From a virus, in the UHGV virus genome UHGV-0312576: a DNA stretch of 64,000 nucleotides. One strand, written 5' to 3'. Made by a program: the position numbers and the translations under genes. Under the pieces are notes generated by a model, which was not told the origin of the DNA, did no database searches, and worked only from the letters and a program-made list of their open reading frames with translations. This document shows positions 1,740-64,000 of this stretch, in pieces (within the stretch, counting starts at the first letter, position 1; the number at the start of each line of letters is the position of its first letter).

Positions 1740-1901
1740 TATATATACCTCACTATATATAAAGTATACCACGAATAGCAAATAAATAGTATATAAAAAA
1801 TATTTACTATATATGCTTGACTTTATATATAGATAAGTATATAATAAGAGGCATAGTATTAAGTAAGCGTAGGGCTACATAAGAGGAAGGGAGGTAAATA
1901 C
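1740..1901. promoter_or_regulatory. divergent promoter/operator region of the lysogeny-control locus
   Basis: AT-rich. TTGACT (1817-1822)-17-TATAAT (1840-1845) reads toward the mazF-like gene. Three copies of the ACTATATATA(G) motif (1752-1764, 1806-1817, 1823-1835) recur as inverted pairs at 29903-29950 and 44035-44080. Confidence 0.5.
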
Positions 1902-2270
1902 ATGGATATTAGATTCGGTGATGTTGTTCAAGTAGATTTTGGCAAGACTACTGGGTCTGTTCAAGGCAGCGTACGACCGTGTGCAGTTATTCAGAATGAT
2001 GTTGGAAACAAATATGGCCCTACTACAATAGTTATACCTTTCACGTCAGAATTGAAAAAAGTAAATATGCCAGTACATGACATTTTACATAAATCTGAAA
2101 ATAATGGCTTAAAAAACGATTCGCTGATTTTAGGAGAACAGGTGAGAGTCATAGATAAATCCATGGTATTATATAAATTAGGTTCTCTTAGTGAAGATGA
2201 ATGTAATAAAGTTATTGGAGTATATTTGAGAAATTTGCCAAAAAGGAGATTTGCAAATGGAACAGCATAG
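1902..2270 (+). CDS. mazF: MazF/EndoA (PemK) family endoribonuclease toxin
   Basis: Near-colinear match to B. subtilis EndoA/NdoA: GDVVQVDF..G(S)VQGSVRPCAVIQND.GNK.GPTTIV.P.TS...K..MP.H.......GL..DS.IL.EQ.R.IDK. GGAAGGGAGG RBS. Confidence 0.85.
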   Translation: MDIRFGDVVQVDFGKTTGSVQGSVRPCAVIQNDVGNKYGPTTIVIPFTSELKKVNMPVHDILHKSENNGLKNDSLILGEQVRVIDKSMVLYKLGSLSEDECNKVIGVYLRNLPKRRFANGTA

Positions 2271-25709: not shown

Positions 25710-25783
25710 GGATCATTAGCTCAGTTGGTCAGAGCATCCGGCTCATAACCGGACGGTCATCTGTTCGAGTCAGATATGATCCA
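25710..25783 (+). tRNA. tRNA-Met (anticodon CAU; elongator or possibly Ile2)
   Basis: Acceptor GGAUCAU/AUGAUCC fully paired, U8, D stem GCUC/GAGC, anticodon stem UCCGG/CCGGA with loop CUCAUAA, T arm AUCUG-UUCGAGU-CAGAU, discriminator A. Confidence 0.7.
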
Positions 25784-50387: not shown

Positions 50388-50976
50388 TGATTGGAAAAGG
50401 GTAAAGAATCATTGTAGAACTACTGACAATAAAGATTTTACGGAAAATAATGTAAATGACGAATTTAAGAAAAAGCTTTTGATTTCAGAACATTCACCGA
50501 TTCGTCTGCTTGAATTTGATTGGTCGTGGAAGGGTATAAAATATTGGGTATCAACGGAGTGGTCGCGTCATCGCTTTGAAAAATTTATTAGCAGCCAGAG
50601 AGATGACCGCTTAAAAGATGGTACATCAAGAGATAAGAAAACTCAGGATGCTCTAGTTAACTTTGATGGGTACGCTAATATGCAAAATCTTATTGATACA
50701 TGGAGGAAGCGTTTGTGTTTTCAGGCCACAAGAGAGGCAAGAGAACTGGCAGAAGATTTTAAATGCGAACTACAAAAAACTCATCCGTTGGAAGCTAATG
50801 TTTTGGTTCCGAATTGTATATATCGCTTAGGGTGTCCAGAATTTAAACCATGTGGACTTTATGATGAATTTTACACCTGGTGTTTTGAAAATAGAGAAAA
50901 GTCTGTAGGCGATATGACAATACAGGAACGATACGACCTATATAATATTTTCTATAATATGAAGGCGGGTGATTAA
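50347..50976 (+). CDS. ThyX-like (flavin-dependent thymidylate synthase family) protein, divergent
   Basis: WSRHRFEKFISSQR resembles the ThyX motif RHR-X7-S-x-R but is one residue short; a W-R-x5-R segment lies later. The nucleotide-metabolism neighbourhood supports the call. Confidence 0.35.
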   Translation: MRYIMKTIFNTILDDWKRVKNHCRTTDNKDFTENNVNDEFKKKLLISEHSPIRLLEFDWSWKGIKYWVSTEWSRHRFEKFISSQRDDRLKDGTSRDKKTQDALVNFDGYANMQNLIDTWRKRLCFQATREARELAEDFKCELQKTHPLEANVLVPNCIYRLGCPEFKPCGLYDEFYTWCFENREKSVGDMTIQERYDLYNIFYNMKAGD

Positions 50977-51558
50977 ATGTTAACAATAATTACTGGGAAA
51001 TCAGGAGCGGGAAAGTCAACAATTGTAAAAGAGTTGGAGAAATACGGCTTTCACCCAGTCTTGACTACAACCACCAGACCTAAGAGGGAGAAAGAAATAC
51101 AGAATGTTGATTATCATTTTGTATCCGAAGAAGAATTTTTAGAGAAAATTGATCAGAATTACTTTGCTGAATATAAGGTTTATAAAACAGAATTAGGAAT
51201 ATGGTATTACGGGTCAGCTAGAGAAAATATAGAGAGTGCTGGCGAAAAGGATATTATCATACTTACGCCAGAAGGTTATAGAGATGTGGTTAAAGAGTAT
51301 CCCAGCTTGGAGTACCGATTGGTCTATATCTATGCCAATAATCAGACCATTAAAAATCGACTGATGAAACGTGGAGACAAAAAAGAAGAAGTTGATCGGC
51401 GGCTCCGCCAAGACTACGAAGACTTTAAGGGAGTGGAAAATTTAGCACATAGAATTGTTTACAACAATGAGAATGATAAACTGTGTGATGTTGTAAACAA
51501 GATCAGAAAGTATTTAGAGGTAAATTTTGAACATGCAGAAACCAAAACTAATTCTTGA
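50977..51558 (+). CDS. guanylate-kinase-like nucleoside monophosphate kinase
   Basis: P-loop IITGKSGAGKST, TTTRPKREKE (GK TTRPPR motif) and VDYHFVSEEEF. Confidence 0.65.
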   Translation: MLTIITGKSGAGKSTIVKELEKYGFHPVLTTTTRPKREKEIQNVDYHFVSEEEFLEKIDQNYFAEYKVYKTELGIWYYGSARENIESAGEKDIIILTPEGYRDVVKEYPSLEYRLVYIYANNQTIKNRLMKRGDKKEEVDRRLRQDYEDFKGVENLAHRIVYNNENDKLCDVVNKIRKYLEVNFEHAETKTNS

Positions 51559-52108
51559 TTTCGATGGTTGCATAGTAAATTCAATCAAGGCCATTGTAGA
51601 TTTATACAATGAAGATTTTCACTATTACGATAACTATAAGTTTGTTAATTGGTGGGATATAAATACATGGGAATTTTCTGAATGTAGTTGCGCAAGTGGT
51701 GAATACATAAACCAATATTTTAATCAAGAACGTTTTTTTGATAGACTTGAATTTATGCCTTGGGCAAAAGAAGTAATTACAGTACTTGAAAAGATATATG
51801 ATATAACGATAGTTTCACATGGATATCCGCCCAATTTAATTCTGAAGCAATTCTGGATCGAATCAAACTTTTCTGATCTAAAGTTTATTGGAGTTGACTT
51901 AAATAAATGCAATGACAAATCTTGTATTGATATGACTGGAGCCTCTTTTTTGGATGATAATGCTAAGAATTTGTATAGTAGCAATGCTAAGCATAAGATT
52001 TGTTTTGGAGAAGAATATGAGTGGAATCGTAATTGGAAAAATGAACGATTAGTTAATTGGTGTGATGTTTATAGAAAGTTTGTAGGAGGTGAGATAAGAG
52101 AATTTTGA
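51533..52108 (+). CDS. HAD-superfamily 5'(3')-deoxyribonucleotidase-like protein
   Basis: HAD motif I LILDFDGCIVNS at the N-terminus. Confidence 0.5.
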   Translation: MQKPKLILDFDGCIVNSIKAIVDLYNEDFHYYDNYKFVNWWDINTWEFSECSCASGEYINQYFNQERFFDRLEFMPWAKEVITVLEKIYDITIVSHGYPPNLILKQFWIESNFSDLKFIGVDLNKCNDKSCIDMTGASFLDDNAKNLYSSNAKHKICFGEEYEWNRNWKNERLVNWCDVYRKFVGGEIREF

Positions 52109-52293
52109 TTACAACAAGCGGTATGTTAGCACGAGAGCTACATAAAGATGATGATTCCTTTCTGACGGTAATGTTAGAAGGTAGAGAATATATTATTGAA
52201 AGTATTGGTAGGGTGCCAGATTTTGTTGATGCTCCTACATCACATAAGTGCCTAAATATTCGTGACGGCGGAGAGGGGCATATTAAACGATGA
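52105..52293 (+). CDS. hypothetical small protein
   Basis: 62-aa ORF. Confidence 0.35.
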   Translation: MITTSGMLARELHKDDDSFLTVMLEGREYIIESIGRVPDFVDAPTSHKCLNIRDGGEGHIKR

Positions 52294-52440
52294 TCAGAGA
52301 AGATAAAAAGCTACTCATTGAATTGATATGTAATGAACAGACAAAAATGATAGTAAAGGACCATACAAAATATGAGTCTGATAAGTATAAGCACCTGGAG
52401 GAACTGAAGGTTAGAATAAAAAATATGTGAGGTAGATAAA

Positions 52441-54684
52441 ATGGTAAAAGTTTTAAAAAGAGATTGTTCAGAGGTGGATTTTGATAAAGCTAAAATCTCA
52501 AGAGCAATCATGAAAGCAATGAAAAATGGTGGTGTAATACAACCAAAGATTGCAGATACCATAGCAGATGAAATTGAGAAATCTTGCTATAACGACGAAA
52601 TGATAAGTATTTATGATATCGAGAATATGGTTTTCCAGAAGCTGATAGACAAAAAAGCTGTACTTACGGCACAAGCGTATGAAGGATACCGAAAGACCAG
52701 AGAATTTCAGCGAGAAATGTCTAATACAACTGATGAAGAAATTCAAGAATTATTAGGTGGAATCAACGATTACTGGAATAGCGAAAATTCAAATAAAAAT
52801 CCAAGGTTGGTTACTACACAGCGTGACTATATGGCGGGCATTGTTAGTAAAGATATATCAAGGAGATTTTTACTCCCTCCAGAAATTGTCCAGGCTCATG
52901 AAGAAGCGATACTTCATTTCCATGATATGGATTATTTTGCCCAGGCTACGCATAATTGTGATTTGCTAAATTTGGAAGATATGCTTCAGAATGGCACAGT
53001 TATCAGTGAAACATTAATAGAGAAACCGCATAGCTTTTCTACGGCATGTAATATTGCAACTCAGATTATTGCCCAGGTTGCATCGTCACAGTATGGAGGG
53101 CAAAGCATTTCCTTAGCACACTTGGCACCATTTGTTGATATTAGTAGACAGAAAATTAGAAAAAAAGTAGAGCATGAAGTGGATGCGTTACTCAAGTCAA
53201 ATTCTGTTCGTAGCTATTTTAATTATCCTGATTATGTAGAAACGGTTACGAATGAACGCTTGATGGATGAGATTAAGAAAGGAATCCAGACCATCCAATA
53301 TCAGGTCATTACTTTGATGACTACCAATGGTCAGGCACCATTTTTAACGGTATATTTATATCTTAATGAAGCTAAGGATAAGCAAGAAAAGGCTGATTTG
53401 GCCTTACTTATTGAAGAAACATTAAAGCAACGTTGCCAAGGTGTGAAAAATGAACAAGGTATATGGATCACACCAGCATTCCCTAAACTGATTTATGTCC
53501 TAGAGGAAGACAATGTTTCGGAAGATAGTAAGTATTGGTATTTGACTGAATTAGCCGCAAAATGTACAGCAAAGCGTATGGTTCCGGATTATGTCTCTGA
53601 AAAAGTAATGCTTGAACTGAAGGGAGATGTCTATACCCCAATGGGATGTAGGAGTTTCCTTACTCCAGACCGCTTCACAGAAAAAGGTGTCGGGAATATT
53701 GCAAAAGCAATGAATTATGAAGAAGGAAAACATAAATACTATGGCCGATTTAATCAGGGTGTAGTAACAATTAATCTGCCAGACATAGCCTTATCTTCGG
53801 GTGGCGATTTTGATAAATTCTGGGAACTATTTGAGGAAAGAACAGAACTTTGCCATAAAGCACTTCGTATTAGACACGAACACTTAAAAGGAACACCTTC
53901 AGATGTTGCTCCTATTCTTTGGAGATACGGGGCATTAGCACGATTAGACAAAGGTGAAACTATAGATAATCTTTTATATTATGGTTATTCAACTATTTCC
54001 TTAGGATATGCCGGATTATACGAATGTGTAAAGTATATGACTGGGAAGAGTCATAGTGATGAAGGTGAAGGAGAGGCTTTCGGACTTGCGGTAATGCAAG
54101 CTCTAAACGATAAATGTAACCACTGGAAAGAGAATGAAAATATTGATTATAGTGTTTATGGAACTCCATTGGAATCTACTACGTACAAATTTGCGCAAAA
54201 ACTTCAGGAGCGTTTTGGTGTAATAGAAGGAATTACAGATAGAGATTATGTCACTAATTCTTATCATATTCCAGTATTTGAAAAGATTGATCCTTTTGAG
54301 AAATTACGTTTAGAGGCCAAATTTCAGAAATTAAGTCCTGGAGGAGCTATTTCATATATTGAAACATGCAATATGCAAGATAATATTCCTGCTGTGTTGG
54401 AGATTCTTAAGTTTATCTATAACAACATTATGTATGCTGAATTAAATACAAAGAGTGATTATTGTCAAGTATGTGGATACGATGGTGAAATCCAGTTATT
54501 AGATATCGATGGAAAACTTGGTTGGAGATGCCCAAATTGTGGTAATGAGGATACTAATAAAATGAACGTTGCAAGACGTACCTGCGGATATATTGGAACT
54601 GCAACAAATGGGTGGAACCAAGGACGATTAGATGAATTTCAGAATAGGTATGTTCATGTAGATGATCATGCAATAGAGAATTAG
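52441..54684 (+). CDS. nrdD: anaerobic ribonucleoside-triphosphate reductase (class III RNR)
   Basis: N-terminal ATP-cone VLKRDCSEVDFDKAKISRAI, C-terminal Zn ribbon CQVCGY...CPNCG and glycyl-radical motif RRTCGYIGT. Confidence 0.9.
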   Translation: MVKVLKRDCSEVDFDKAKISRAIMKAMKNGGVIQPKIADTIADEIEKSCYNDEMISIYDIENMVFQKLIDKKAVLTAQAYEGYRKTREFQREMSNTTDEEIQELLGGINDYWNSENSNKNPRLVTTQRDYMAGIVSKDISRRFLLPPEIVQAHEEAILHFHDMDYFAQATHNCDLLNLEDMLQNGTVISETLIEKPHSFSTACNIATQIIAQVASSQYGGQSISLAHLAPFVDISRQKIRKKVEHEVDALLKSNSVRSYFNYPDYVETVTNERLMDEIKKGIQTIQYQVITLMTTNGQAPFLTVYLYLNEAKDKQEKADLALLIEETLKQRCQGVKNEQGIWITPAFPKLIYVLEEDNVSEDSKYWYLTELAAKCTAKRMVPDYVSEKVMLELKGDVYTPMGCRSFLTPDRFTEKGVGNIAKAMNYEEGKHKYYGRFNQGVVTINLPDIALSSGGDFDKFWELFEERTELCHKALRIRHEHLKGTPSDVAPILWRYGALARLDKGETIDNLLYYGYSTISLGYAGLYECVKYMTGKSHSDEGEGEAFGLAVMQALNDKCNHWKENENIDYSVYGTPLESTTYKFAQKLQERFGVIEGITDRDYVTNSYHIPVFEKIDPFEKLRLEAKFQKLSPGGAISYIETCNMQDNIPAVLEILKFIYNNIMYAELNTKSDYCQVCGYDGEIQLLDIDGKLGWRCPNCGNEDTNKMNVARRTCGYIGTATNGWNQGRLDEFQNRYVHVDDHAIEN

Positions 54685-54696
54685 GGGGAAACTACA

Positions 54697-55269
54697 TTGC
54701 GCTTTGCTCAGATACGCAACATGGACATCAGCAATGGAGAGGGTATAGGTGTTGCCCTCTTCGTCCAGGGTTGTCATTTTCATTGTCACAATTGTTTTAA
54801 TTTTGAAACATGGGATTTTAAGGGTGGATCAGAATGGACCAAAGAAACAAAATTACAGTTTTTAGACCTTATTAGCAAACCATTTGTTAAAAGGGTCAGT
54901 ATTCTTGGTGGTGAACCATTGGCAGATGAAAATGTAGATGAAATTTGTATGTTGTTAAATGAAATCCGCTATACTTTTCGAGATAAAATCATTTGGTTGT
55001 ATACAGGCTATACCTTCGAAGAATCATTTGATTATAGCTGGCAAGAAAAAGCAGACCTAAGGTTTAGTGAAAATCCTTTAGAACGCAGATCGGATTTAAT
55101 TAAAACATGTAGGCAAAATACCATTAAATTATGTGATGTGCTTATAGATGGAAAATATATGGACGATGAGCGAGATTTAAATCTTAAATGGTGTGGCAGT
55201 AAGAATCAAAGAGTTATTGATGTTCAAAAATCACTTCTTAACGGAGAAATAGTTTTATGGACAGCATGA
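54697..55269 (+). CDS. nrdG: anaerobic RNR activating protein (radical SAM)
   Basis: CHFHCHNC (CxxxCxxC) cluster at the N-terminus, directly downstream of nrdD; TTG start. Confidence 0.8.
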   Translation: MRFAQIRNMDISNGEGIGVALFVQGCHFHCHNCFNFETWDFKGGSEWTKETKLQFLDLISKPFVKRVSILGGEPLADENVDEICMLLNEIRYTFRDKIIWLYTGYTFEESFDYSWQEKADLRFSENPLERRSDLIKTCRQNTIKLCDVLIDGKYMDDERDLNLKWCGSKNQRVIDVQKSLLNGEIVLWTA

Positions 55270-55439
55270 ATCAGAACTGTATGGCGTATTTCCAAGAGGA
55301 GGTACGCCAATATAAGATAATGTTAGATGGAGTATTAAGTAAAGAGTATAGAGAATATCTAATTAGGAAGTTACTTATGTTCCAGTATGTTATAAATCTA
55401 TTGAAGGAGTGTGGGAATGATAATACTAAAACTACATAA
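55257..55439 (+). CDS. hypothetical small protein
   Basis: 60-aa ORF. Confidence 0.35.
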   Translation: MDSMNQNCMAYFQEEVRQYKIMLDGVLSKEYREYLIRKLLMFQYVINLLKECGNDNTKTT

Positions 55440-55776
55440 TGATGTGACACCAGAGAAATTAATCAAGGCAGGATTTCGGCAGCAATCAGAAAATAAGCTG
55501 CTCTTTAGAATGAGGGATCGACTTTATAAGGATACAATTTCACTATCAATCAAAATAGATTTGTCAAAGGAACCAGATGAACAGATTGAGTGGTATGTGA
55601 TTGATAACAATACTGGTATGAGCTATAGTACATTCTATTTTACACCAAATTCATGTAAGGATCTGGTAAGAGATACGGTATATAGAACATTTCGTGAGGT
55701 ATTAAACGAGTTAGATAAAAGAGAAGTATTGTATATGGATGGTGACGAAAATGGAAACAAGAATAGCAAAATTTGA
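55411..55776 (+). CDS. hypothetical protein
   Basis: 121-aa ORF, GTG at 55411 or ATG at 55417. Confidence 0.4.
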   Translation: MGMIILKLHNDVTPEKLIKAGFRQQSENKLLFRMRDRLYKDTISLSIKIDLSKEPDEQIEWYVIDNNTGMSYSTFYFTPNSCKDLVRDTVYRTFREVLNELDKREVLYMDGDENGNKNSKI

Positions 55777-56290
55777 AAAGGTATCAAGAGAACAATTTTA
55801 TAAAGATATGGTTGAGTCTTTTGGTGTTCAATACGGATTACCTGAAGATGGATTTCTTGATGAAATTTACGAGAGAATCAAACTACCACAAAGAGCCACA
55901 ATGGGTTCGGCTGGATATGATATTTTTACACCAGTACATATTATACTGGAGCCAGGTAAGACAATTAAAGTGCCGACTGGTATCAGATGTAGTATTAATC
56001 CGGGATGGTTTCTTGGTATTTTACCTCGTTCTGGCCATGGATTTAAATATGGAGTACGCCTTGCGAATACTTTTGGAATAATTGACTGTGACTATTTTTC
56101 ATCTGATAATGAGGGACATATTTTTGTAAAGCTAGTCAATGATTCATGTATCTGTAAAACTGTAGACATACCAACATGGCAGGGGATGGCTCAGGGTATC
56201 TTTCTACCATTTGGAATCACTGTAGATGATGAGAGTAATACAGTACGAAATGGTGGTTTCGGGTCAACCGACAGACATACTCCACAATAA
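55739..56290 (+). CDS. dut: dUTP diphosphatase (trimeric dUTPase)
   Basis: Motifs SAGYDIF, LPRSGHG and FGIIDCDYFS. Confidence 0.75.
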   Translation: MVTKMETRIAKFEKVSREQFYKDMVESFGVQYGLPEDGFLDEIYERIKLPQRATMGSAGYDIFTPVHIILEPGKTIKVPTGIRCSINPGWFLGILPRSGHGFKYGVRLANTFGIIDCDYFSSDNEGHIFVKLVNDSCICKTVDIPTWQGMAQGIFLPFGITVDDESNTVRNGGFGSTDRHTPQ

Positions 56291-56315
56291 AAAATAGGGT
56301 AATAATAACCCTATT

Positions 56316-56729
56316 TTACTGTTCAACTGATGATTTCTTCTGCAATTTTATATAGCTGTTAAGTTCTTTAGTCATAGTTTTAAAACTTCCTAGTCCAACC
56401 TGATAGCCATCTTTATCAATTATCCTAGCCATACTAGATAATGAATTTTTTTGAAGTACCCATCCATCAGTTTCACATAAAGTAAACCAATTTCCACCAT
56501 TTACATCAACTTTTTTTCTTCTGGTAGGCATTTTGAATTTTACATTTTTTATGTTTTTAAGACTATCCGAGTTTTTTATGGCTATATTTTTAACTAGCTT
56601 GCCAATATTTGATGATAAAGAAGTTTTCATGGCAATTTCACAAGTTCTTTTCATCAAAGGAATACCTGTTGAAGCAGTAAATTTACCAGTTTCTTTTATC
56701 ATATACCATCCAAGTCCAATATGTCCCAT
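56316..56729 (-). CDS. opposite-strand hypothetical protein with weak LAGLIDADG-like motifs (possible truncated homing endonuclease)
   Basis: HIGLGWYMIKETGKF near the N-terminus and ARIIDKDGYQVGLGSF ~90 residues later (xAxxIDxDG); 137 aa is short for a two-motif enzyme. Confidence 0.35.
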   Translation of the reverse strand: MGHIGLGWYMIKETGKFTASTGIPLMKRTCEIAMKTSLSSNIGKLVKNIAIKNSDSLKNIKNVKFKMPTRRKKVDVNGGNWFTLCETDGWVLQKNSLSSMARIIDKDGYQVGLGSFKTMTKELNSYIKLQKKSSVEQ

Positions 56730-56803
56730 AATATCCCCCTTCTTTCATATATTATAACATATAAAGAGAAATATTAAAATAAAAAAGTAACAAAGGAGTA
56801 TGT

Positions 56804-57493
56804 ATGAGTAGATTATTAACTACAGGGATAATCGCTTTATCTCTATCTTTAATCACGCCCATGGTAGCATGGGCAGAAGAAATTATAGAAACCGTTTCTA
56901 TAACGGCACAGGTTGAAACAATGAAAGAAGCATTTACTGAGGCTTTAGAATCTAAAACAATGTATGCAAACAAAGCCGGAGTCAATATCCGGGAGAAGCC
57001 TGATATAGAATCAAGAATTATTGACCAGACCATGTTGAATACCTCGTTCGAAGTAATTGGCGAATATGACGGATGGTCCATGATAACCACAGAAGATGGT
57101 TATGCATATGTCAAATCTGAGTATCTTTCTGATACAGAAATTGAACCCCCACAATATACGGAAAAAGATTTATATATACTGGCTCATGTGATATGTGGCG
57201 AAGCACAGGGCTATTCTGGTGAGGAACAGCGCTATGTAGGCTCAGTTGTTATAAATAGAGTAAACCATCCCGAATTTCCAAACTCTATTGAGGATGTGGT
57301 ATTCCAGAGAGGTCAGTATGCATGTGTAAGCGATGGAAATTACTATCGAGAGCCAACACCACAAAATTGGGCCAATGCGCAATGGCTGTTAGAAAACGGT
57401 AGTGTTTTGCCTAATAGTGTGATATGGCAATCAAAGGGAGAACAAGGGAGTGGGGTGTACCTAAAAACGAAATGGCATAGCTATTGCTATTAA
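56804..57493 (+). CDS. secreted cell-wall hydrolase, SleB/CwlJ family, with SH3b-like domain
   Basis: Signal peptide MSRLLTTGIIALSLSLITPMVAWA; SH3b-like KAGVNIREKPDIESRIIDQTMLNTSFEVIGEYDGWSMI; catalytic DLYILAHVICGEAQGYSGEEQRYVGSVVINRVNHPEFP. Confidence 0.7.
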   Translation: MSRLLTTGIIALSLSLITPMVAWAEEIIETVSITAQVETMKEAFTEALESKTMYANKAGVNIREKPDIESRIIDQTMLNTSFEVIGEYDGWSMITTEDGYAYVKSEYLSDTEIEPPQYTEKDLYILAHVICGEAQGYSGEEQRYVGSVVINRVNHPEFPNSIEDVVFQRGQYACVSDGNYYREPTPQNWANAQWLLENGSVLPNSVIWQSKGEQGSGVYLKTKWHSYCY

Positions 57494-57590
57494 TTATAGA
57501 AGAAAGAGGATTGTTTATAGCTATAATAATATGATAAGAAATAAAATAATGGAAGGTACTTGGCTACTGTAATTTGATTAAAAAGTGGTG

Positions 57591-58949
57591 ATGAGGATAA
57601 AAAAGAAAAAGTCTGAAATTATCGACCCATTGTCTTTTGATTCTTCAAGTGCTATGATAAACAGTATAGATAATATACAGATATTATTAGCTAATATGAA
57701 AAAAGAAGAGGAATTAAGACAAAGGGCTAAGTATCTGCATGAACAACATTACAAAATATCAACATCCAAAACAGGAAGCGTCATGACTTGGGTTTTTGAC
57801 CCAAGTAAGGAGAATAACAGAAGAAAAATAAAAAAAACAACAATGGACGCTTTACTGGACGAATTAGTATCTATTTATATAAAGGAAGGTGAGGCAGAGG
57901 ATTATGTAGAAGAGCATCATGATATAATTGATGCACATTCCCAAGCTCAAAAAGAAGATACAAAACATAAGACAATAACATTCCGGGAGTTTTATTCTGA
58001 ATGGTTAAGTTATCAAGGGCTAGACCATGATGGGGCTACCATAGTAAGATATGATGTTGATTGGAATAAGTATTACGTCAATGAACCTCTATCAAAGGAT
58101 ATCATTGATAATCCGATCAAGGATATTAAGCCAATCCAAATTAAAGTATGGGCGTATAAGCTTATTGAAAAGTACAAAATGACATCAACTAAGTATTATA
58201 ATGTCTCAACAATACTTCGTCAGGGATTAGCTTTCGCTGCTTCTGAGGACATTGGAATTATTGACACATCACCTTTTAAAGTGATAATCAAGAAGTCAGA
58301 TAAAAAATTCAAGCATGCGAAAAAGCCTGAAAACAAAACTCAGGTATTTAATTTGGCGGTTCTAAAAAAATTAATTGACTTATGTTGGGAAGATTACAAT
58401 GATAAGGATAAACAATATCTAACACCACTTGCAATATTATTTATGATAGAGACTGGGGTTAGGATAGGAGAGCTGTTGGGATTGTTTTGGAATGATGTTG
58501 AAGCTGATACTGTAAACATTAAACGACAGTATGGGCGTATTTATGATAATGGGGTTCTAGCTGGATACGATTTAAAAGAGTATACAAAATCTGAAGCGGG
58601 TGAACGTTCCATTCCATTGACCAATGAGGCAATCAAAATTCTTCAAGAAATTCGCAAGTATTATTTAAGGAAAGGTATCATTACGGAACGGATATTTGAG
58701 AAAGTTGGTTACTCGGCAACCAGAAATAAACTTTATAGGTATTGTGACAAGATGAACGAAATAAGAAAATCCAATCACAAAATCCGGAAGACATATGTTT
58801 CTCGCTTGCTTTACAACGGCCTATCAATAAATGATGTGAGAGAATTGGCCGGACATAACAGTGAGCAGACAACGTTGCGTAACTATACTTTCGGCGTTGA
58901 GACTGATGAAGAATTGAAAACTCATGTCAAGGAAGCCTTAGCTTTATAA
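57591..58949 (+). CDS. int: tyrosine-type site-specific integrase
   Basis: C-terminal catalytic region HKIRKTYVSRLLYNGLSINDVRELAGHNSEQTTLRNYTF (H-x-x-R ... Y). Directly abuts an att-like repeat cluster. Confidence 0.85.
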   Translation: MRIKKKKSEIIDPLSFDSSSAMINSIDNIQILLANMKKEEELRQRAKYLHEQHYKISTSKTGSVMTWVFDPSKENNRRKIKKTTMDALLDELVSIYIKEGEAEDYVEEHHDIIDAHSQAQKEDTKHKTITFREFYSEWLSYQGLDHDGATIVRYDVDWNKYYVNEPLSKDIIDNPIKDIKPIQIKVWAYKLIEKYKMTSTKYYNVSTILRQGLAFAASEDIGIIDTSPFKVIIKKSDKKFKHAKKPENKTQVFNLAVLKKLIDLCWEDYNDKDKQYLTPLAILFMIETGVRIGELLGLFWNDVEADTVNIKRQYGRIYDNGVLAGYDLKEYTKSEAGERSIPLTNEAIKILQEIRKYYLRKGIITERIFEKVGYSATRNKLYRYCDKMNEIRKSNHKIRKTYVSRLLYNGLSINDVRELAGHNSEQTTLRNYTFGVETDEELKTHVKEALAL

Positions 58950-58973
58950 AAAACGTACCCAAACGTACCCAAA
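58949..58973 (+). repeat. 25-bp direct repeat, copy 1 (putative integrase arm site)
   Basis: Identical to 59147-59171. Confidence 0.6.
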
Positions 58974-59146
58974 CTTTTGGTTTGGGGTGGGTACAGGACA
59001 TTGGGAAAATGTTGAAAAAGTACGTAAATACGTTGTTTTTGAGTCTAGAAATGCGGATATGGAGCACGGGTTCGAATCCCGTATGCTCCATTGAAAAAAG
59101 TACGTAAAATGGAGGTTTTCTGTATATTATCTAAGCCGCATTTTTG

Positions 59147-59171
59147 AAAAACGTACCCAAACGTACCCAAA
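59147..59171 (+). repeat. 25-bp direct repeat, copy 2 (putative integrase arm site)
   Basis: Identical to 58949-58973. Confidence 0.6.
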
Positions 59172-59320
59172 GATTTTAATCGGACTTTTAGCTTTTAAAG
59201 TAGCCTTAAATGGCTACTTTTTTTGTCATAAAATTTTTTATTTAGGCATATACTGGAAATATATGGACATACTAATCATATCCATAGCAAATAGTATATA
59301 CGTAAAAGGAGAACATAATT

Positions 59321-59566
59321 ATGGCACGAGGAGTAAGAAAAACACCACTTGAAAAATTACAGGCAGAGTTATTAGAAGTACAGGCAACCATCGTACAGTA
59401 TGAGAACTGCCTGAAAACGATGAAGGAAAAAGAAAAGTCCATTCAAGAACAGATTGAATTAGAAGAATTTAAGGAATTTAAATCCATGCTAGGCGACCAG
59501 GGGATGACCATGGATGACATCAAAGAATTAGTATCTTCACAGAATGATATTCAGCAGAGCGCTTAA
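59321..59566 (+). CDS. hypothetical coiled-coil small protein
   Basis: 81-aa ORF, RBS AAAAGGAGAACATAATT. Confidence 0.45.
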   Translation: MARGVRKTPLEKLQAELLEVQATIVQYENCLKTMKEKEKSIQEQIELEEFKEFKSMLGDQGMTMDDIKELVSSQNDIQQSA

Positions 59567-59586
59567 TGGCGCTCTGTATTTTTTTA
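59555..59586 (+). terminator. rho-independent terminator
   Basis: CAGAGCGC-TTAATG-GCGCTCTG followed by TATTTTTTT; the stop codon of the 59321 ORF sits in the loop. Confidence 0.65.
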
Positions 59587-59589
59587 CCA

Positions 59590-59618
59590 TTGACACGAAC
59601 ATATGTTTGTGGTACCAT
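59590..59618 (+). promoter_or_regulatory. lexA promoter with LexA box (autoregulation)
   Basis: TTGACA (59590-59595) immediately followed by CGAACATATGTTTG (59596-59609); a -10-like TACCAT at 59613-59618. The 20-mer is identical to 2587-2606. Confidence 0.7.
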
Positions 59619-59664
59619 ATGATTAAGAAAAGAACAAGTGTTCTGATTGGATGGAGGGTTCTGT

Positions 59665-60276
59665 ATGCCAAGCATTACAAATAAGCAACTGGAGATTTTG
59701 GAATACATTAAAAATACAATATTAAGTGAAGGATATCCACCTGCCTTGCGGGAGATTTGTGAAGCAGTCCATTTAAGGTCTACTTCTTCCGTTCATGCTC
59801 ATTTGGCTACTTTGGAGAAAAATGGGTATATACGGCGTGACCCTGCAAAACCCAGAACCATTGAGATTTTAGATGACTTGTTCAATTTTAGTACACGAGA
59901 AATGGTCAATATCCCAGTTGTCGGAACGGTAGCAGCCGGAGAACCTATATTAGCTGAAGAACGGGTTGAAGACTATTTTCCATTCCCTGCCGAGGTACTC
60001 CATACAGATAAAGAAGTATTTATGTTGCGAGTCAAAGGTGAGAGTATGATTAATGCTGGAATAAAACCTGGCGATAAAATCATGGTGGAACAGCAGGACA
60101 CAGCTGAAAATGGTGAGATTGTGGTAGCATTAATAGAAGATTCGGCTACAGTAAAACGTTTCTATAAAGAACAAGACCATTACCGATTACAGCCTGAAAA
60201 CGATACAATGGAGCCGATAATTGTAAGCGATGTACAAATACTGGGTAAAGTAGTTGGATTGATAAGAATGATGTGA
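59665..60276 (+). CDS. lexA: LexA repressor (S24 peptidase, transcriptional repressor of the SOS response)
   Basis: N-terminal LexA winged-helix MPSITNKQLEILEYIKNTILSEGYPPALREICEAVHLRSTSSVHAHLATLEKNGYIRR, cleavage site VAAGEP, catalytic GESM and VKRF; ATG 59665 after GGAGGG. Confidence 0.9.
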   Translation: MPSITNKQLEILEYIKNTILSEGYPPALREICEAVHLRSTSSVHAHLATLEKNGYIRRDPAKPRTIEILDDLFNFSTREMVNIPVVGTVAAGEPILAEERVEDYFPFPAEVLHTDKEVFMLRVKGESMINAGIKPGDKIMVEQQDTAENGEIVVALIEDSATVKRFYKEQDHYRLQPENDTMEPIIVSDVQILGKVVGLIRMM

Positions 60277-60363
60277 GGGATGGTATGGATGTAACTTGTG
60301 TTACTGATATTTTTAAATTTATGCATCGCGTTATGAATCTGGAAGTGGACGAGATAGAATATT

Positions 60364-60666
60364 GTGATGATGAATCATATGATATGCCTACAGACGAGGA
60401 GGTGTCACCATTATATGAAGATAACGAGGGATAATCTTAATGAGGTCATGTTTGAAAATCATGATGCACGTTTGCTTATTGAGGATGTAGTTACTCATAC
60501 CAGTGCCAATCTCTATTATTATCATGATATAGAGATAACAGTGCAGAAGGCTTTGGAGATTTGGCAAAAGGCACAGTCCGCAGATGAAGATGAAATTGAA
60601 GGGCAATATAGTGTATCATTCCTTGACTTTTCAAAAGAACGTATACCAGAATTACTTTGTTCATAA
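60364..60666 (+). CDS. hypothetical protein between lexA and the Y-family polymerase gene
   Basis: ORF-track frame; the likely start is ATG 60415 (MKITRDNLNEV...). Confidence 0.4.
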   Translation: MMMNHMICLQTRRCHHYMKITRDNLNEVMFENHDARLLIEDVVTHTSANLYYYHDIEITVQKALEIWQKAQSADEDEIEGQYSVSFLDFSKERIPELLCS

Positions 60667-60710
60667 GATGGGAACCAGAAGAACGGTTCCCTATAATTTC
60701 CACTATAAAC

Positions 60711-60731
60711 CGAACATACATTCGATTATAA
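60711..60731 (+). promoter_or_regulatory. LexA-box-like operator plus -10 element upstream of the Y-family polymerase gene
   Basis: CGAACATACATTCG (60711-60724; one mismatch to GAAC-N4-GTTC in the right half) abuts TATAAT at 60726-60731. Confidence 0.5.
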
Positions 60732-60753
60732 TAAAACTAGAAGAGGTGATTAT

Positions 60754-62031
60754 GTGGAAAGAGTTATATTTCATGTAGATGTAAATTCAGCGTTTCTTAG
60801 TTGGGAAGCGACATATCGAGTACATCATTTGGGAGCAAAATTGGATTTACGTGATATTCCAAGCGTGGTAGGTGGCGATCAAGAGAAACGGCATGGTATT
60901 ATCCTGGCTAAATCCATACCAGCTAAGAAGTATAAAATCCAAACAGGAGAACCAGTAATAGACGCAAAGCGTAAATGTCCTGAGCTTGTTGTAGTTCCAC
61001 CCAATTATAATCTATACCAACGGTCTTCAAATGCGTTACTGTCAATTCTACGACGCTATACGGACAAAATAGAGCAGTATAGCATTGACGAAGCGTTCAT
61101 GGATATGACAGGAACTAAAGTATTTGGAAAACCAGAGGAAGTGGCAAATGAGATCCGGGAGACGGTTTATCGAGAATTAGGCTTTACAGTAAATATTGGA
61201 GTATCCTATAACAAGATTCTGGCTAAGATGGCATCGGATTTCCAAAAGCCCAATAGGGTTCATACCCTCTGGCCGGATGAGATACCAATTAAAATGTGGC
61301 CTTTGCCAGTGAGGGATTTATTTTTTGTCGGTCATGCAACAGAGAATAAATTATTAAACTTAGGAATCAGGACAATAGGAGAAATCGCAACATTTGATCC
61401 ATATATTTTAAAGTCACATATGCATAAACATGGCGTGACAATTTGGAAATTTGCGCACGGAATTGATGTGTCAGAGGTGATTGACACACCACCGCCAAAT
61501 AAAGGGTATGGTAATAGTACTACAATAGCCTTTGATGTGACCGATACAAAGACTGCTAAATTGGTTCTATTGTCTTTGGCAGAGACAGTAAGTGCAAGGC
61601 TCCGAGCTGATGGAGTCAAGATTGGTGTTGTATCTATAAGCATTCGTGACTGCAATTTGCAATTTTATGGTCATCAAATTACGTTGGATGTATCTACTGA
61701 TTTAACAACGGAAATTTATGATGCAGCTTGCCGATGTTTTGATGAACTTTGGAATGGGATACCAATACGACATTTAGGTATCCATACAGAGCGCGTAAAT
61801 GGCTCAGAATGCCGCCAAATGAGTTTGTTCGACGGAACGGACTACGAGAAACAAAAATGCGTAGAAATGGCCGTAGATGCGCTAAGAAAACGATTTGGGA
61901 TTGACAGTATCAAAAGAGCATCGTTCATTGAATCTCCAAACAGGGATAAAGAAAATTTGATTGACCATATGAGTGGTGGAATCAGTCGTGAAAAGCGCAC
62001 TGTGGATTATGAAAAGGAAATTATTATTTAA
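60754..62031 (+). CDS. Y-family (UmuC/DinB/UvrX-like) translesion DNA polymerase
   Basis: N-terminal IFHVDVNSAFLSWE and catalytic SIDEAFMDMTG Y-family palm motifs; 425 aa; GTG start. Confidence 0.8.
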   Translation: MERVIFHVDVNSAFLSWEATYRVHHLGAKLDLRDIPSVVGGDQEKRHGIILAKSIPAKKYKIQTGEPVIDAKRKCPELVVVPPNYNLYQRSSNALLSILRRYTDKIEQYSIDEAFMDMTGTKVFGKPEEVANEIRETVYRELGFTVNIGVSYNKILAKMASDFQKPNRVHTLWPDEIPIKMWPLPVRDLFFVGHATENKLLNLGIRTIGEIATFDPYILKSHMHKHGVTIWKFAHGIDVSEVIDTPPPNKGYGNSTTIAFDVTDTKTAKLVLLSLAETVSARLRADGVKIGVVSISIRDCNLQFYGHQITLDVSTDLTTEIYDAACRCFDELWNGIPIRHLGIHTERVNGSECRQMSLFDGTDYEKQKCVEMAVDALRKRFGIDSIKRASFIESPNRDKENLIDHMSGGISREKRTVDYEKEIII

Positions 62032-62045
62032 GGAGTTGAGTAGTT

Positions 62046-62360
62046 ATGTCTATCTTTGGCATAGGGACGAATTCGCAAGAAACGGATAATGGAGAATTAA
62101 AGGGACAAATGTATCATATTGCATGTATGGCATGGTTTCCCGCTTACAGTAAAGACCCTATTCCTGTGAGTTTTAAATTTATGGGTGATGATGGATCATG
62201 CCAGAGAGTAAGTGATATTTCGGTAATGGAAGATGAAGAAAAAAATTACGCTGGAATACCAAGCCGCGAATACAAATGTAAAGCATTTATTGGTGGATTG
62301 GAACAGATCTTTAAATTAGTGTACTTTACGGAGGAATATAAATGGGTAATGGTAATTTGA
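62046..62360 (+). CDS. hypothetical protein
   Basis: 104-aa ORF, RBS AAGGAGTTGAGTAGTT. Confidence 0.45.
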   Translation: MSIFGIGTNSQETDNGELKGQMYHIACMAWFPAYSKDPIPVSFKFMGDDGSCQRVSDISVMEDEEKNYAGIPSREYKCKAFIGGLEQIFKLVYFTEEYKWVMVI

Positions 62361-62563
62361 CAGCTAAAGAAGACATATCTATTGAGAACTTATATAATTT
62401 TATTCGTGCTTCACTGGTGGCGCTACAACCTACAGATGGATTTGGCGAAGCTGATTTTACTTGCCCCATTTGTGGCTCTCAAGCACACATCAGGAGAGAT
62501 AAGGGTGAAATATATAATAATGGAGATATATCGTGCCGGTGCGGGTATTCCTTTCATTTCTAG
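62342..62563 (+). CDS. small zinc-ribbon protein
   Basis: 73 aa, CPICGS...CRCGYSF. Confidence 0.4.
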   Translation: MGNGNLTAKEDISIENLYNFIRASLVALQPTDGFGEADFTCPICGSQAHIRRDKGEIYNNGDISCRCGYSFHF

Positions 62564-62629
62564 CTTGTGTCACGATTAATAACATGATAAGATAGTGAAC
62601 AGATTTGCAAAGGATGTGGTATATAACTG

Positions 62630-62944
62630 ATGAATCATGAACTTACTGTACAGGCTGTACATATTAAAACAACGATATTTAATCCGCCAGCACGATTAAT
62701 CAACTGTAAGGAATTATGTTGTGCTTTTGGATTTGCATATAAACAGGCAGGACTTCAATGCCCAAATATTCAAGAAGGTGCGCAAATAGAAGAGAGTATC
62801 AAAAGTTGTCTGGGAGATATTGAAGGTAAGGACATTGATGAAAAAGTGAGGGAAATAATATCTAGCTATATTTTAAAGCCAGATGAAGTAATTAATGAAG
62901 ATGCACTTACTATTTTGAAGATGGGCTATGAAATAGGAAGATGA
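62630..62944 (+). CDS. hypothetical protein
   Basis: 104-aa ORF. Confidence 0.45.
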   Translation: MNHELTVQAVHIKTTIFNPPARLINCKELCCAFGFAYKQAGLQCPNIQEGAQIEESIKSCLGDIEGKDIDEKVREIISSYILKPDEVINEDALTILKMGYEIGR

Positions 62945-63010
62945 AAATGGTAAATATTACCAGTGGTTTTTTGAAAGTTTAGAGTTAAAATTAAATCAGG
63001 GGTGGCGCTT

Positions 63011-63190
63011 ATGGATAAAGATAAGAATTCCAATGAGCCTGATTTTAATGAAGTCAATATGACAGATGAGGAACTGTTGGACGAATTTGAACGTGCGAAA
63101 AGGATAATCTGTGATGAGATACCTAAAGCCCCGCCAGATGAATTTGAAATCATTTGGCAAAGGATTATGAGAGAGGAGGATGAAAAATAG
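63011..63190 (+). CDS. hypothetical small acidic protein
   Basis: ATG 63011 after AGGGGTGG. Confidence 0.4.
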   Translation: MDKDKNSNEPDFNEVNMTDEELLDEFERAKRIICDEIPKAPPDEFEIIWQRIMREEDEK

Positions 63191-63210
63191 ATTTCATAGC
63201 TAAAAGTAAA

Positions 63211-63255
63211 AAATAGGATGACCGAGCAACATACTCAGTCATCCTATTTGCTTTT
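63211..63255 (+). terminator. rho-independent terminator
   Basis: Perfect 12-bp stem AAATAGGATGAC / GTCATCCTATTT with a 15-nt loop, then GCTTTTG. Confidence 0.6.
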
Positions 63256-63412
63256 GAAAAACTAAAAAAGCTTTAAAAACAGCTAAAAACCTTTGAAAAC
63301 CTTATAAAAGTTTAAAATATATAAAAATGCACTAATTTATTTACAAAATCGTCAATCTGTGTTATAATCCTTCTTATGAAAGTGGAATATAAAGAAAAGG
63401 AGAAGAAAATCT

Positions 63413-63883
63413 ATGTTTGTTGTAAATCATAGGCTATTTGATTCTAAAAATGCTGATGTTATATATGACGCATTAGAAGATTGCATTCAGGTATCTATTA
63501 ACAGTTATTATGTTTTAAACAATTACAGGAGAACTACAAAGGGTCAATATGATATTGTGAAAAAATACTATTCCATAACACTTGATTTGGAAACGGCTAA
63601 ATTTAAGACAATAGAAAAAATGAAGAATGAGAAATTGAGCAGTATTCAAATAGAGAAAAGAATTGCAGAAAATGAGGAAATACTTCGCTCAATAGTGTAT
63701 TACGCTTTAAATAATAAAAGCAAAGCAATTACTTACAGTGAGCCATTTGATAAAGCCATATTGCAATCAGGATATACTGATGAAACTTGTCAGAAGGGAC
63801 TCACATATGTGATTAGAACAAATGCAAGACAGGAGATAGATGATAGTGTTTCTTATACAGACATTACTCTTGATGCATATTAA
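63413..63883 (+). CDS. hypothetical protein
   Basis: 156-aa ORF preceded by an A-tract-rich region and an extended -10 TGTTATAAT (63354-63362); RBS AAAAGGAGAAGAAAATCT. Confidence 0.5.
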   Translation: MFVVNHRLFDSKNADVIYDALEDCIQVSINSYYVLNNYRRTTKGQYDIVKKYYSITLDLETAKFKTIEKMKNEKLSSIQIEKRIAENEEILRSIVYYALNNKSKAITYSEPFDKAILQSGYTDETCQKGLTYVIRTNARQEIDDSVSYTDITLDAY

Positions 63884-64000
63884 AAGAGAGATTTTGCGCG
63901 ACCGTCCAAAGTTTTAGCAAAATCTCCCCCTCATGGAATTGTGCTTATACATAGCAAAAACCACTTTCATTTTAGCATGATTCCATGTGATAGTCAAATA

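What the first reader, a model, noticed from the sequence alone, without database searches (positions are those of the whole stretch)
58949..59171. Intact attP-like architecture next to the integrase
Immediately after the integrase stop codon is a 25-bp perfect direct repeat, itself a tandem ACGTACCCAA x2, repeated again 198 bp later. A second repeated 14-mer, AAAAAGTACGTAAA, lies inside. In the middle is a stem-loop that is exactly a tRNA T-arm plus acceptor 3' strand (ACGGG-TTCGAAT-CCCGT-ATGCTCC-A), with no 5' half. Arm-type repeats on both sides of a tRNA-3'-end core are the signature of an unrecombined attP. That would mean the sequence is a free, circular or circularly permuted phage genome with its lexA/Y-polymerase module also phage-borne, not an attR junction. 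The alternative is that 59172 onward is host DNA and the right-hand repeat is coincidental.
Basis: partly seen in the sequence, partly recalled or inferred. Interest (0 to 1): 0.6.

Follow-up and report, generated by a model that had tools for sequence, protein, structure and literature searches.

The report
Intact attP of a large phage
The repeats and half-tRNA beside the integrase gene are the unrecombined attachment site (attP) of a roughly 165-kb temperate phage of the gut bacterium Enterocloster bolteae, which inserts into a tRNA-Ala gene; it is a well-built but ordinary example of a known mechanism.

Summary
The 25-mer (58949-58973, 59147-59171), the 14-mer (59015, 59095) and a 3' tRNA fragment (59065-59090) are each unique in the window and absent from shuffles.

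The fragment is the 3' end of tRNA-Ala(GGC). Public contigs of Enterocloster bolteae supply all four att sites:
- **Empty attB:** hydrolase, tRNA-Ala, then an MBL-hydrolase gene, with no arm repeats.
- **attL:** tRNA-Ala, then the window's right flank with lexA and the Y-polymerase gene.
- **attR:** integrase, the left arm and the core, then the MBL gene.
- **attP:** the window, and independently L122.

attP and attB share 31 identical bases (29 in one strain). One 99-kb contig links the lexA block to the phage's left part. The element is therefore single, about 165 kb and SPbeta-like.

A relative whose integrase is 70% identical keeps tandem TACCCAA decamers just after its integrase stop codon. 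The integrase model shows the three parts expected of a lambda-type enzyme.

Whether the molecule was free, tandem or mis-joined is unresolved. This is a new member of a known kind, of low interest.

The parts
57585..58949 (+). Tyrosine integrase gene (454 aa from GTG; 452 aa from the ATG two codons later)
   Evidence: PF00589 matches at E 5e-15. Eight homologues share invariant R293, H398, R401, H424 and Y434. The predicted fold matches Tn1549 and lambda integrases best. The identical protein sits next to attR in L121.
58949..58973 (+). P-arm pair of tandem decamers (ACGTACCCAA x2): putative arm-type integrase sites
   Evidence: A phage whose integrase is 70% identical has AGTTACCCAA AGATACCCAA at the same place, right after its integrase stop codon, while the spacer has diverged.
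58986..58994 (-). Degenerate inverted copy of the decamer core (GTACCCACC); it can pair with the second decamer. Significance uncertain.
   Evidence: read directly from the sequence.
59012..59043 (+). Left 17-mer TTGAAAAAGTACGTAAA, overlapping the palindrome ACGTAAATACGT (59022-59033). The block AAATACGTTGTTTTTGAG is conserved in the relative. Putative accessory-protein or secondary integrase site.
   Evidence: The relative L165 keeps GGAAATACGTTGTTTTTGAG, with its own inverted repeat CAACG/CGTTG.
59065..59095 (+). Common core: 31 bp identical between attP and attB. It comprises the last 26 nt of tRNA-Ala(GGC) (59065-59090) plus TTGAA. The T-stem halves 59066-59070 and 59078-59082 flank the 7-nt T-loop 59071-59077, the inferred crossover region.
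   Evidence: Four-way alignment of attP, attB, attL and attR. In one strain the host reads TTGTA, which limits the identity to 59065-59093.
59091..59135 (+). P'-proximal region: the right 18-mer TTGAAAAAAGTACGTAAA, then sequence about 70% similar to the host tRNA trailer (B')
   Evidence: Megablast of attR contigs against the window runs on to 59127.
59147..59171 (+). P'-arm pair of tandem decamers, identical to the P-arm pair and in the same orientation
   Evidence: Present in attL (L123-L128) and attP (window, L122). Absent from empty attB and from attR.
59197..59230 (+). Intrinsic terminator. In the lysogen it lies about 110 nt downstream of the rebuilt tRNA-Ala and replaces the host terminator hairpin.
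   Evidence: Terminator scan. The host hairpin gcgaatggcttaggccattcgc follows the tRNA in empty attB.
59321..62031 (+). First genes of the phage's left end: an 81-aa ORF (59321-59566), lexA (59665-60276, with SOS boxes at 59596 and 59631) and a Y-family polymerase (60754-62031, with an SOS box at 60711)
   Evidence: Pfam and PHROG matches. SOS boxes. These genes lie between tRNA-Ala and the MBL gene only in lysogens and are linked to the rest of the phage on one contig.

Best explanation
Window 58949-59171 is the genuine, unrecombined attP (P arm, core, P' arm) of a temperate phage of Enterocloster bolteae. The phage is about 165 kb and SPbeta-like in gene content.

**How it works.**
- The adjacent 454-aa tyrosine integrase recombines the 31-bp core with the identical 3' end of the host tRNA-Ala(GGC) gene. 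The core is the last 26 nt of that tRNA plus TTGAA.
- Integration gives attL: an intact tRNA-Ala, the P' arm, a phage terminator, then lexA and the Y-polymerase gene.
- It also gives attR: integrase, the P arm, the core, the host trailer, then the MBL-hydrolase gene.

**Shown.** The four att sites, the extent of the core, the restoration of the tRNA, and the single-element linkage.

**Inferred.**
- The tandem TACCCAA decamers, one pair about 116 bp left of the core and one about 57 bp right of the tRNA end, are arm-type sites. They would be bound by the integrase's N-terminal beta-beta-beta-alpha domain, as in lambda and mycobacteriophage L5.
- Strand exchange occurs in the 7-nt T-loop, between the inverted T-stem halves.
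- The 17-mers are extra integrase or accessory-factor sites.

The window comes from a molecule in which the two phage ends are joined. Most likely this is excised circular, replicating or circularly permuted phage DNA.
For: **Repeats and core are real and non-random**.

**The core is a tRNA-Ala 3' end**.

**Empty attB exists in E. bolteae** without arm repeats or lexA:
- L140, L141 and L144 carry a complete tRNA-Ala(GGC).

**attL:** an intact tRNA-Ala is followed by sequence about 96% identical to window 59060-64000.

**attR:** homology to the window ends at 59095-59127, then the MBL gene follows.

**The same attP junction occurs in an independent Logan assembly.** L122 is 99.4% identical over 50754-64000, and two similar places were not shown.

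**The element is single.**
- The lexA block and a phage-left gene lie on one 99,148-nt contig, in a consistent orientation.
- In scaffold_54 the attR core lies at 164.9 kb, which matches my composite size estimate of about 164.7 kb.
- No second core or arm pair was found in any internal locus.

**The decamer pair is conserved** after the integrase stop codon of a 70%-identical relative that uses the same attB.

**The integrase model has three parts:** beta-beta-beta-alpha at about 59-110, a helical domain at 122-219 and a catalytic domain at 257-453. Its best structural matches are the Tn1549 and lambda integrases.

**Published precedent:** pairs of directly repeated arm-type sites flanking a tRNA/tmRNA-derived core are described for the attP sites of mycobacteriophages CrimD, Pixie, L5 and Giles (PMC3203893).
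Against: - No binding or recombination data exist. The arm-site and crossover assignments rest on anatomy and analogy.
- The N-terminal 260 aa match no Pfam family. The beta-beta-beta-alpha element has only moderate confidence (pLDDT 63-82), from an 8-sequence alignment.
- The relative's P' arm could not be retrieved, so conservation is shown for one arm only.
- No excisionase was identified.
- Among the 24 longest contigs that carry the neighbouring phage hydrolase, every place shown is attR. The joined form is therefore the minority in assemblies.
- The physical state of the window's molecule cannot be read from the sequence.
- The phage is absent from the phage, plasmid and IMG/VR collections, so no deposited free genome confirms the circle.
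Confidence: 0.88

Rival explanations
1. This is an attR junction of an integrated prophage. Everything right of the core (59091 onward, including lexA and the Y-polymerase gene) is host chromosome, and the right-hand repeats are coincidental.
For: At first sight, contigs L123-L128 show the same right flank directly after an intact tRNA-Ala, with host genes (PFOR, CMAS) upstream and no integrase.
Against: - True empty sites in the same species put the MBL-hydrolase gene directly after the tRNA-Ala. They have a different trailer, no decamers and no lexA.
- The integrase side abuts that MBL gene in many contigs.
- The lexA block is linked to the phage on one contig.
- A 25-mer repeated by chance has 0 occurrences in 100 shuffles.
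Confidence: 0.02
2. The lexA/Y-polymerase block is a separate resident integrative element with its own P' arm. The window would then show the phage integrated in tandem beside it, making a hybrid attP-like junction.
For: - The first 12 kb of the lexA block share no DNA or protein similarity with the 59 kb of phage in the window, apart from the arm repeat and an IS110.
- tRNA genes are known sites for tandem accretion of elements (general knowledge).
Against: - Lysogens show the order tRNA, lexA ... integrase, MBL. The window shows integrase followed by lexA. Both orders follow simply from one circular element.
- A single 99-kb contig joins the two parts.
- No internal core or arm pair was found in any locus between them.
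- Neither part was seen alone at the site.
- The insertion length in scaffold_54 matches the sum of the parts.
Confidence: 0.03
3. The sequence is a real attP in composition, but the window does not come from free phage DNA. It is either the internal junction of a tandem double lysogen or an assembler's mis-join of attR and attL through the shared 31-bp core.
For: - Many contigs break exactly at the core (L127, L143, L151, L153), so the site is a branch point in assembly graphs.
- Most long contigs show the integrated form.
Against: - The same junction occurs in at least one independent assembly (L122, plus two similar places).
- The exact repeat is only 31 bp, shorter than ordinary reads, so a mis-join is not expected.
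- Spontaneous excision in lysogen cultures and gut samples is common (general knowledge).
Confidence: 0.2

Closest known systems
Mycobacteriophage attP sites with paired arm-type sites around a tRNA/tmRNA-derived core (L5, Giles, CrimD, Pixie; PMC3203893)
   Same: - A tyrosine integrase gene lies next to attP.
- The common core is identical to the 3' part of a host tRNA-type gene near the T-arm.
- Pairs of 10-11 bp arm-type repeats sit on both sides of the core. In L5, Giles and Pixie they are in direct orientation.
- The arm-site sequence drifts between related integrases.
- A terminator lies beside the core.
   Different: - The host phylum differs (Bacillota, not Actinomycetota).
- The integrase is unrelated at the sequence level.
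- The decamer consensus (TACCCAA) and the target (tRNA-Ala) differ.
- Binding is not demonstrated here.
Phage lambda attP and Int (heterobivalent integrase; PMC4880445; PDB 1Z1B, 1Z1G, 5J0N)
   Same: - The integrase model has three parts.
- The layout is arms plus core.
- The reaction converts attP x attB into attL + attR.
- Lambda integrase structures are among the best fold matches.
   Different: - Lambda's core is 15 bp in an intergenic site, not in a tRNA.
- Lambda's arm sites number five, with IHF, Xis and Fis sites between them. No such factor sites or excisionase are identified here.
- Structure-based sequence identity is about 13-15%.
tRNA-gene-targeting integrative elements that carry the tRNA 3' end in attP (for example P4, P22, HP1, mv4; general knowledge, and the mv4 preprint 10.1101/2023.11.06.565760 listed)
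   Same: attP carries the 3' segment of the tRNA, so integration rebuilds an intact gene. This was verified here: ARAGORN finds a complete tRNA-Ala in attL.
   Different: - The identity starts at the last base before the T-stem, so it covers only the T-arm and the acceptor 3' strand.
- The homology runs on imperfectly for about 40 nt into the tRNA trailer.
Bacillus phage SPbeta and other large temperate phages (from my own knowledge)
   Same: - A large temperate genome.
- A replication and nucleotide-metabolism module: DnaB, primase, RecJ-like exonuclease, PolIII-alpha-like polymerase, ligases, ThyX, NrdDG and dUTPase.
- A phage-borne Y-family polymerase.
- Long arrays of small ORFs.
   Different: - SPbeta integrates with a serine recombinase into spsM, not with a tyrosine integrase into a tRNA.
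- There is no detectable DNA similarity to any deposited phage.

Membership tests
Lambda-type (arm plus core) tyrosine-integrase attP | An adjacent tyrosine recombinase with the catalytic R..H-x-x-R..H..Y residues | tested here: met
   PF00589 matches at E 5e-15. R293, H398, R401, H424 and Y434 are invariant in 8 homologues. The fold matches Tn1549 and lambda integrases at E 1e-13 to 1e-10.
Lambda-type (arm plus core) tyrosine-integrase attP | A core identical to a host attB, with reciprocal attL and attR junctions found in lysogens | tested here: met
   A 31-bp identity (29 bp in one strain). All four sites were recovered and aligned.
Lambda-type (arm plus core) tyrosine-integrase attP | Repeated arm-type sites on both arms, distinct in sequence from the core | tested here: met
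   Two identical pairs of tandem decamers at 58949-58973 and 59147-59171. They are unique in the window and absent from attB. The P-arm pair is conserved in a 70% relative. That they are bound by the integrase is inferred.
Lambda-type (arm plus core) tyrosine-integrase attP | The integrase has a separate N-terminal arm-binding domain | tested here: inconclusive
   The model shows beta-beta-beta-alpha at about 59-110, followed by a disordered linker. pLDDT is 63-82 from a shallow alignment. The motif YKI..G.W.T.V.D is conserved among homologues. There is no Pfam match for residues 1-260.
Lambda-type (arm plus core) tyrosine-integrase attP | An excisionase (directionality factor) and bending-protein sites in the arms | not tested
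   No candidate was identified. The 81-aa ORF next to attP has no family match. The 17-mers and the palindrome at 59022-59033 are only candidates.
tRNA-3'-end-targeting integrative elements | attP carries the tRNA 3' segment, so the gene is intact after integration | tested here: met
   ARAGORN finds a complete tRNA-Ala(GGC) in attL loci L123-L126 and L128, and in the empty sites L140, L141 and L144. It finds none at attP or attR.
tRNA-3'-end-targeting integrative elements | Strand exchange within a symmetric tRNA arm (here the T-loop between the T-stem halves) | not testable with these tools
   The crossover can only be bounded to 59065-59093 from the identity block and the TTGTA host variant.
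Prophage-host junction (attR or attL) | One flank is host DNA that is also present at the unoccupied site | tested here: not met
   Neither flank of the window's site occurs at the empty attB. The right flank is replaced there by a different trailer and the MBL gene.

The most novel reading that the evidence does not exclude
The attP belongs to an undescribed lineage of temperate phages, about 165 kb and SPbeta-like, that is widespread in E. bolteae. Three further ideas go with this reading:
- The phage's own LexA homologue, through SOS boxes at lexA, at the Y-polymerase gene and at an early region near 2.6 kb, acts as the phage's SOS-sensing switch.
- The phage can persist with its ends joined, as an episome, as well as integrated.
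- The P' arm has co-opted about 40 nt of host tRNA trailer and supplies a replacement terminator for the tRNA.
Probability: 0.25. Interest if true: 0.45.

Novelty: new member of a known kind. Interest (0 to 1): 0.22.

Why it matters
**Annotation.** The result fixes how this window should be annotated. All 64 kb are phage. The lexA/Y-polymerase module is phage cargo, not the host SOS locus. The ends of the prophage in E. bolteae genomes can now be placed to the base, at tRNA-Ala(GGC) between a cell-wall hydrolase gene and an MBL-hydrolase gene.

**A defined recombination system.** It provides an integrase with its attP and attB for a common gut Clostridia species, which could be turned into an integration vector.

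**An undeposited phage.** It flags a very large temperate phage, seen in hundreds of gut assemblies, that is absent from the phage collections searched here.

**Mechanism.** Nothing departs from the lambda/L5 paradigm.

Tried and rejected
1. **Resident-island hypothesis.** I dropped it after three results:
   - The listing of cluster members showed both flanks are E. bolteae genes.
   - The MBL-gene look-up produced true empty sites.
   - One contig linked the lexA block to the phage.
2. **Hydrolase coincidence.** The phage hydrolase at 56804-57493 is 56% identical to the host hydrolase next to attB. I considered a deletion or recombination origin for the 'empty' sites. I rejected it because PFOR and CMAS context flanks the host copy, and the tRNA has its own promoter.
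3. **Searches that found nothing useful.**
   - Phage collection, distant mode with the att region: only weak lexA hits.
   - Phage collection, near mode with 30-45 kb: none.
   - Plasmid collection: none.
   - IMG/VR, exact arm 20-mer: 0 hits.
   - IMG/VR, integrase: 0 relatives.
   - IMG/VR, degenerate TACCCAANNNTACCCAA: 120 hits, none with the core, so all are chance matches.
4. **Other dead ends.**
   - Pfam on the integrase N-terminus gave no hit.
   - Representatives P0001 and P0002 of the host hydrolase cluster sit on contigs too short to reach the tRNA.
   - The P0165 look-up did not show the 493,689-nt contig I wanted.
   - The C. clostridioforme prophage paper and the SPbeta + C. bolteae literature search gave nothing on this phage.
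5. **Not achieved.** I could not retrieve the relative's P' arm or the start of scaffold_54, because the look-ups were exhausted.

Full report
**1. Observation**

- The integrase ORF ends with TAA at 58947-58949.
- From 58949 runs AAAAACGTACCCAAACGTACCCAAA. The same 25-mer recurs at 59147-59171.
- The 20-mer core of this repeat has only these two matches in 64 kb, even with 3 mismatches, and none in 100 shuffles.
- All four exact ACGTACCCAA units in the window lie here.
- AAAAAGTACGTAAA occurs only at 59015 and 59095.
- ACGGGTTCGAATCCCGTATGCTCCA (59066-59090) is unique, and ARAGORN calls no tRNA there.
- The order is mirror-symmetric but every site points the same way: 25-mer, 17-mer, core, 17-mer, 25-mer. 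That pattern fits protein-binding sites around a core, not a segmental duplication.

**2. What the half-tRNA is**

The 25-mer is the exact 3' end of tRNA-Ala(GGC or CGC) genes in more than 120 genomes of Lachnospiraceae and relatives. Identity to those genes starts one base before the T-stem and stops a few bases after the discriminator.

**3. The four att sites**

The exact integrase is also encoded on an NCBI contig, L121. That contig is identical to the window up to CCATTGAA. It then continues into a different sequence and an MBL-hydrolase gene.

The exact Y-family polymerase is on hundreds of contigs. In most of these (L123-L126, L128) the window's right flank, including the right 14-mer and 25-mer, directly follows a complete tRNA-Ala(GGC). 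Host genes (PFOR, CMAS and a cell-wall hydrolase) lie upstream, and there is no integrase. Taken alone, this looked like an empty site, which would have made the window an attR.

Two results changed that reading.
- Both flanking host proteins belong to Enterocloster bolteae.
- Looking up the MBL hydrolase gave contigs L140, L141 and L144, plus about 19 similar places. In these the MBL gene, tRNA-Ala(GGC), a 96-aa gene and the hydrolase are adjacent. The tRNA trailer there matches the one in L121, and there are no decamers.

The sites are therefore:
- **attB:** L140-type loci.
- **attL:** L123-type loci.
- **attR:** L121, L136, L138, L142 and L287-L290.
- **attP:** the window.

The four-way alignment gives a 31-bp common core, CACGGGTTCGAATCCCGTATGCTCCATTGAA (59065-59095). 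One host variant reads TTGTA, which reduces the core to 29 bp. To the right of the core, P' and B' stay about 70% similar for about 40 nt.

Megablast shows the same break points.
- attR contigs match the window up to 59127.
- attL contigs match from 59060.
- L122, an independent Logan assembly, is colinear through the junction at 99.4% identity over 50754-64000.

**4. One element or two?**

The first 12 kb after lexA share nothing with the phage part of the window, so a tandem arrangement of two elements had to be considered. Several results argue against it.
- Contig SRR27226150_1575 (99,148 nt) carries the lexA/Y-polymerase block at one end. It carries a gene of the phage's left region 92 kb away, in a consistent orientation.
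- Adding the distance from that gene to window position 1 gives about 164.7 kb from the core back round to the core. Window position 1 corresponds to L129 position 9607.
- In scaffold_54 of ERZ28600867 the attR core lies at 164,932. This agrees with that scaffold spanning the whole prophage.
- No second core or decamer pair occurs in any internal locus.

The interior also looks like a phage.
- The window's 11-50 kb region encodes RNA ligase, PNK, DnaB, primase, a RecJ-like exonuclease, a 1105-aa polymerase, an exoV/Dda helicase, DNA ligase, ThyX, NrdDG and dUTPase.
- Tail-fibre and baseplate genes lie in the part outside the window.
- This is the gene content of a large SPbeta-like temperate phage.

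**5. Mechanism**

*Shown:*
- Insertion at the tRNA-Ala 3' end rebuilds the gene.
- The phage supplies a terminator (59197-59220 plus a T-run) in place of the host hairpin.

*Inferred:*
- **Arm-type sites.** The decamer pairs are arm-type sites. In support, a phage whose integrase is 70% identical uses the same attB. It has AGTTACCCAA AGATACCCAA immediately after its stop codon, while the surrounding spacer has diverged. Within this phage's own population, substitutions fall in spacers and not in the repeats.
- **Integrase architecture.** The integrase model has a beta-beta-beta-alpha element (about 59-110), a linker, a helical domain and the catalytic domain. Its best fold matches are the Tn1549 and lambda integrases. 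The N-terminus matches no Pfam family, so the arm-binding domain is probable, not proven.
- **Crossover.** The likely crossover is the 7-nt T-loop between the inverted T-stem halves. The data only bound it to 59065-59093.
- **Excisionase.** None was identified.

**6. Comparison with known systems**

The architecture matches published attP sites of mycobacteriophages. There, pairs of 10-11 bp arm-type sites flank a core derived from a tRNA or tmRNA, and the arm sequences drift among related integrases (PMC3203893). It also matches the lambda paradigm (PMC4880445, listed). Nothing tested departs from that family. The integrase family itself is small, with 7 database clusters at E below 1e-20. 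The phage is not in the phage, plasmid or IMG/VR collections.

**7. Verdict**

This is an intact attP, and the lexA/Y-polymerase module is phage-borne.

Three qualifications apply.
- The window is a 64-kb slice of a genome of about 165 kb, so its two ends are not neighbours.
- The free-circle state is inferred. Contigs often break at this core, and most long contigs show the integrated form. A tandem lysogen or a mis-join therefore keeps about 0.2 probability.
- The roles of the repeats are assigned by analogy.

It is a new member of a well-known kind, and interest is low (0.22). The surrounding phage is more noteworthy than its attachment site.

Noticed in passing
window 59596-59609, 59631-59644, 60711-60724, 2565-2578, 2593-2606: Firmicute-type SOS boxes (GAAC-N4-GTTC) sit on the phage lexA promoter and 43 nt before the Y-polymerase start. 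A second pair lies near 2.6 kb, upstream of tRNA-Gln, a 207-aa ORF and a sigma-like gene. The 14-mer CGAACATATGTTTG is identical at 2593 and 59596. The phage LexA may control an early region as well as its own module.
   Followed up: partly
whole window plus L129-L162: The element is a temperate phage of about 165 kb with an SPbeta-like replication and nucleotide module. It carries its own tRNAs: tRNA-Gln at 2846 and 25564, and tRNA-Met at 25710. It occurs in hundreds of E. bolteae-containing assemblies but is absent from the phage, plasmid and IMG/VR collections.
   Followed up: partly
L145 10472-17012 (also L151-L157): A 331-aa XerC/D-like tyrosine recombinase is embedded among minus-strand tail-fibre and BppU baseplate genes. 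The small ORFs around it differ between contigs. This may be a tail-fibre inversion (shufflon-like) system.
   Followed up: no
L129 1708-5007; L162 12019-13113: The phage carries further tyrosine recombinases. One is a 272-aa protein next to a DUF6551 gene, with a separate 101-aa SAM-like fragment nearby. One variant has a 364-aa integrase among the small early ORFs. Their roles are unknown; dimer resolution or episomal maintenance are possibilities.
   Followed up: no
window 56804-57493 versus L124 6766-7461: The phage's secreted SH3_3 + Hydrolase_2 protein, just upstream of the integrase gene, is 56% identical to the host cell-wall hydrolase that lies just upstream of attB. Homologous genes therefore sit beside both partners of the recombination.
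   Followed up: partly
window 59096-59135 versus L140 10928-10890 (minus strand): The core-proximal P' arm is about 70% similar to the host tRNA-Ala trailer for about 40 nt beyond the exact core. This suggests attP was originally captured from such a locus. The host trailer is itself polymorphic (TTGAAGAG, TTGAACAG, TTGTAGAG).
   Followed up: partly
window 8251-9444 (minus strand); L122 15811-17022: IS110-family transposase copies lie inside the phage, at different places in different copies. Several metagenomic contigs end near the first one.
   Followed up: no
L158 3751-8124; L125 13386-14555; L156 9144-9608: A variable cargo spot lies beside an Apyc1-like MBL gene in the phage's left end. 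One variant carries a 1457-aa LRR/Roc-COR protein, and another carries an Abi_alpha gene.
   Followed up: no
window 1365-2270: An XRE-type HTH gene on the minus strand faces a PemK/MazF-like toxin gene and a 309-aa ORF (395-1324). This may be a lysogeny-control or toxin-antitoxin region, about 106 kb from attP on the prophage map.
   Followed up: no
L030 and L064 (genome loci): Two other genomes have the same tRNA-Ala 3' 25-mer preceded by sequence that is not tRNA. These are probably att junctions of other elements that use this tRNA.
   Followed up: no
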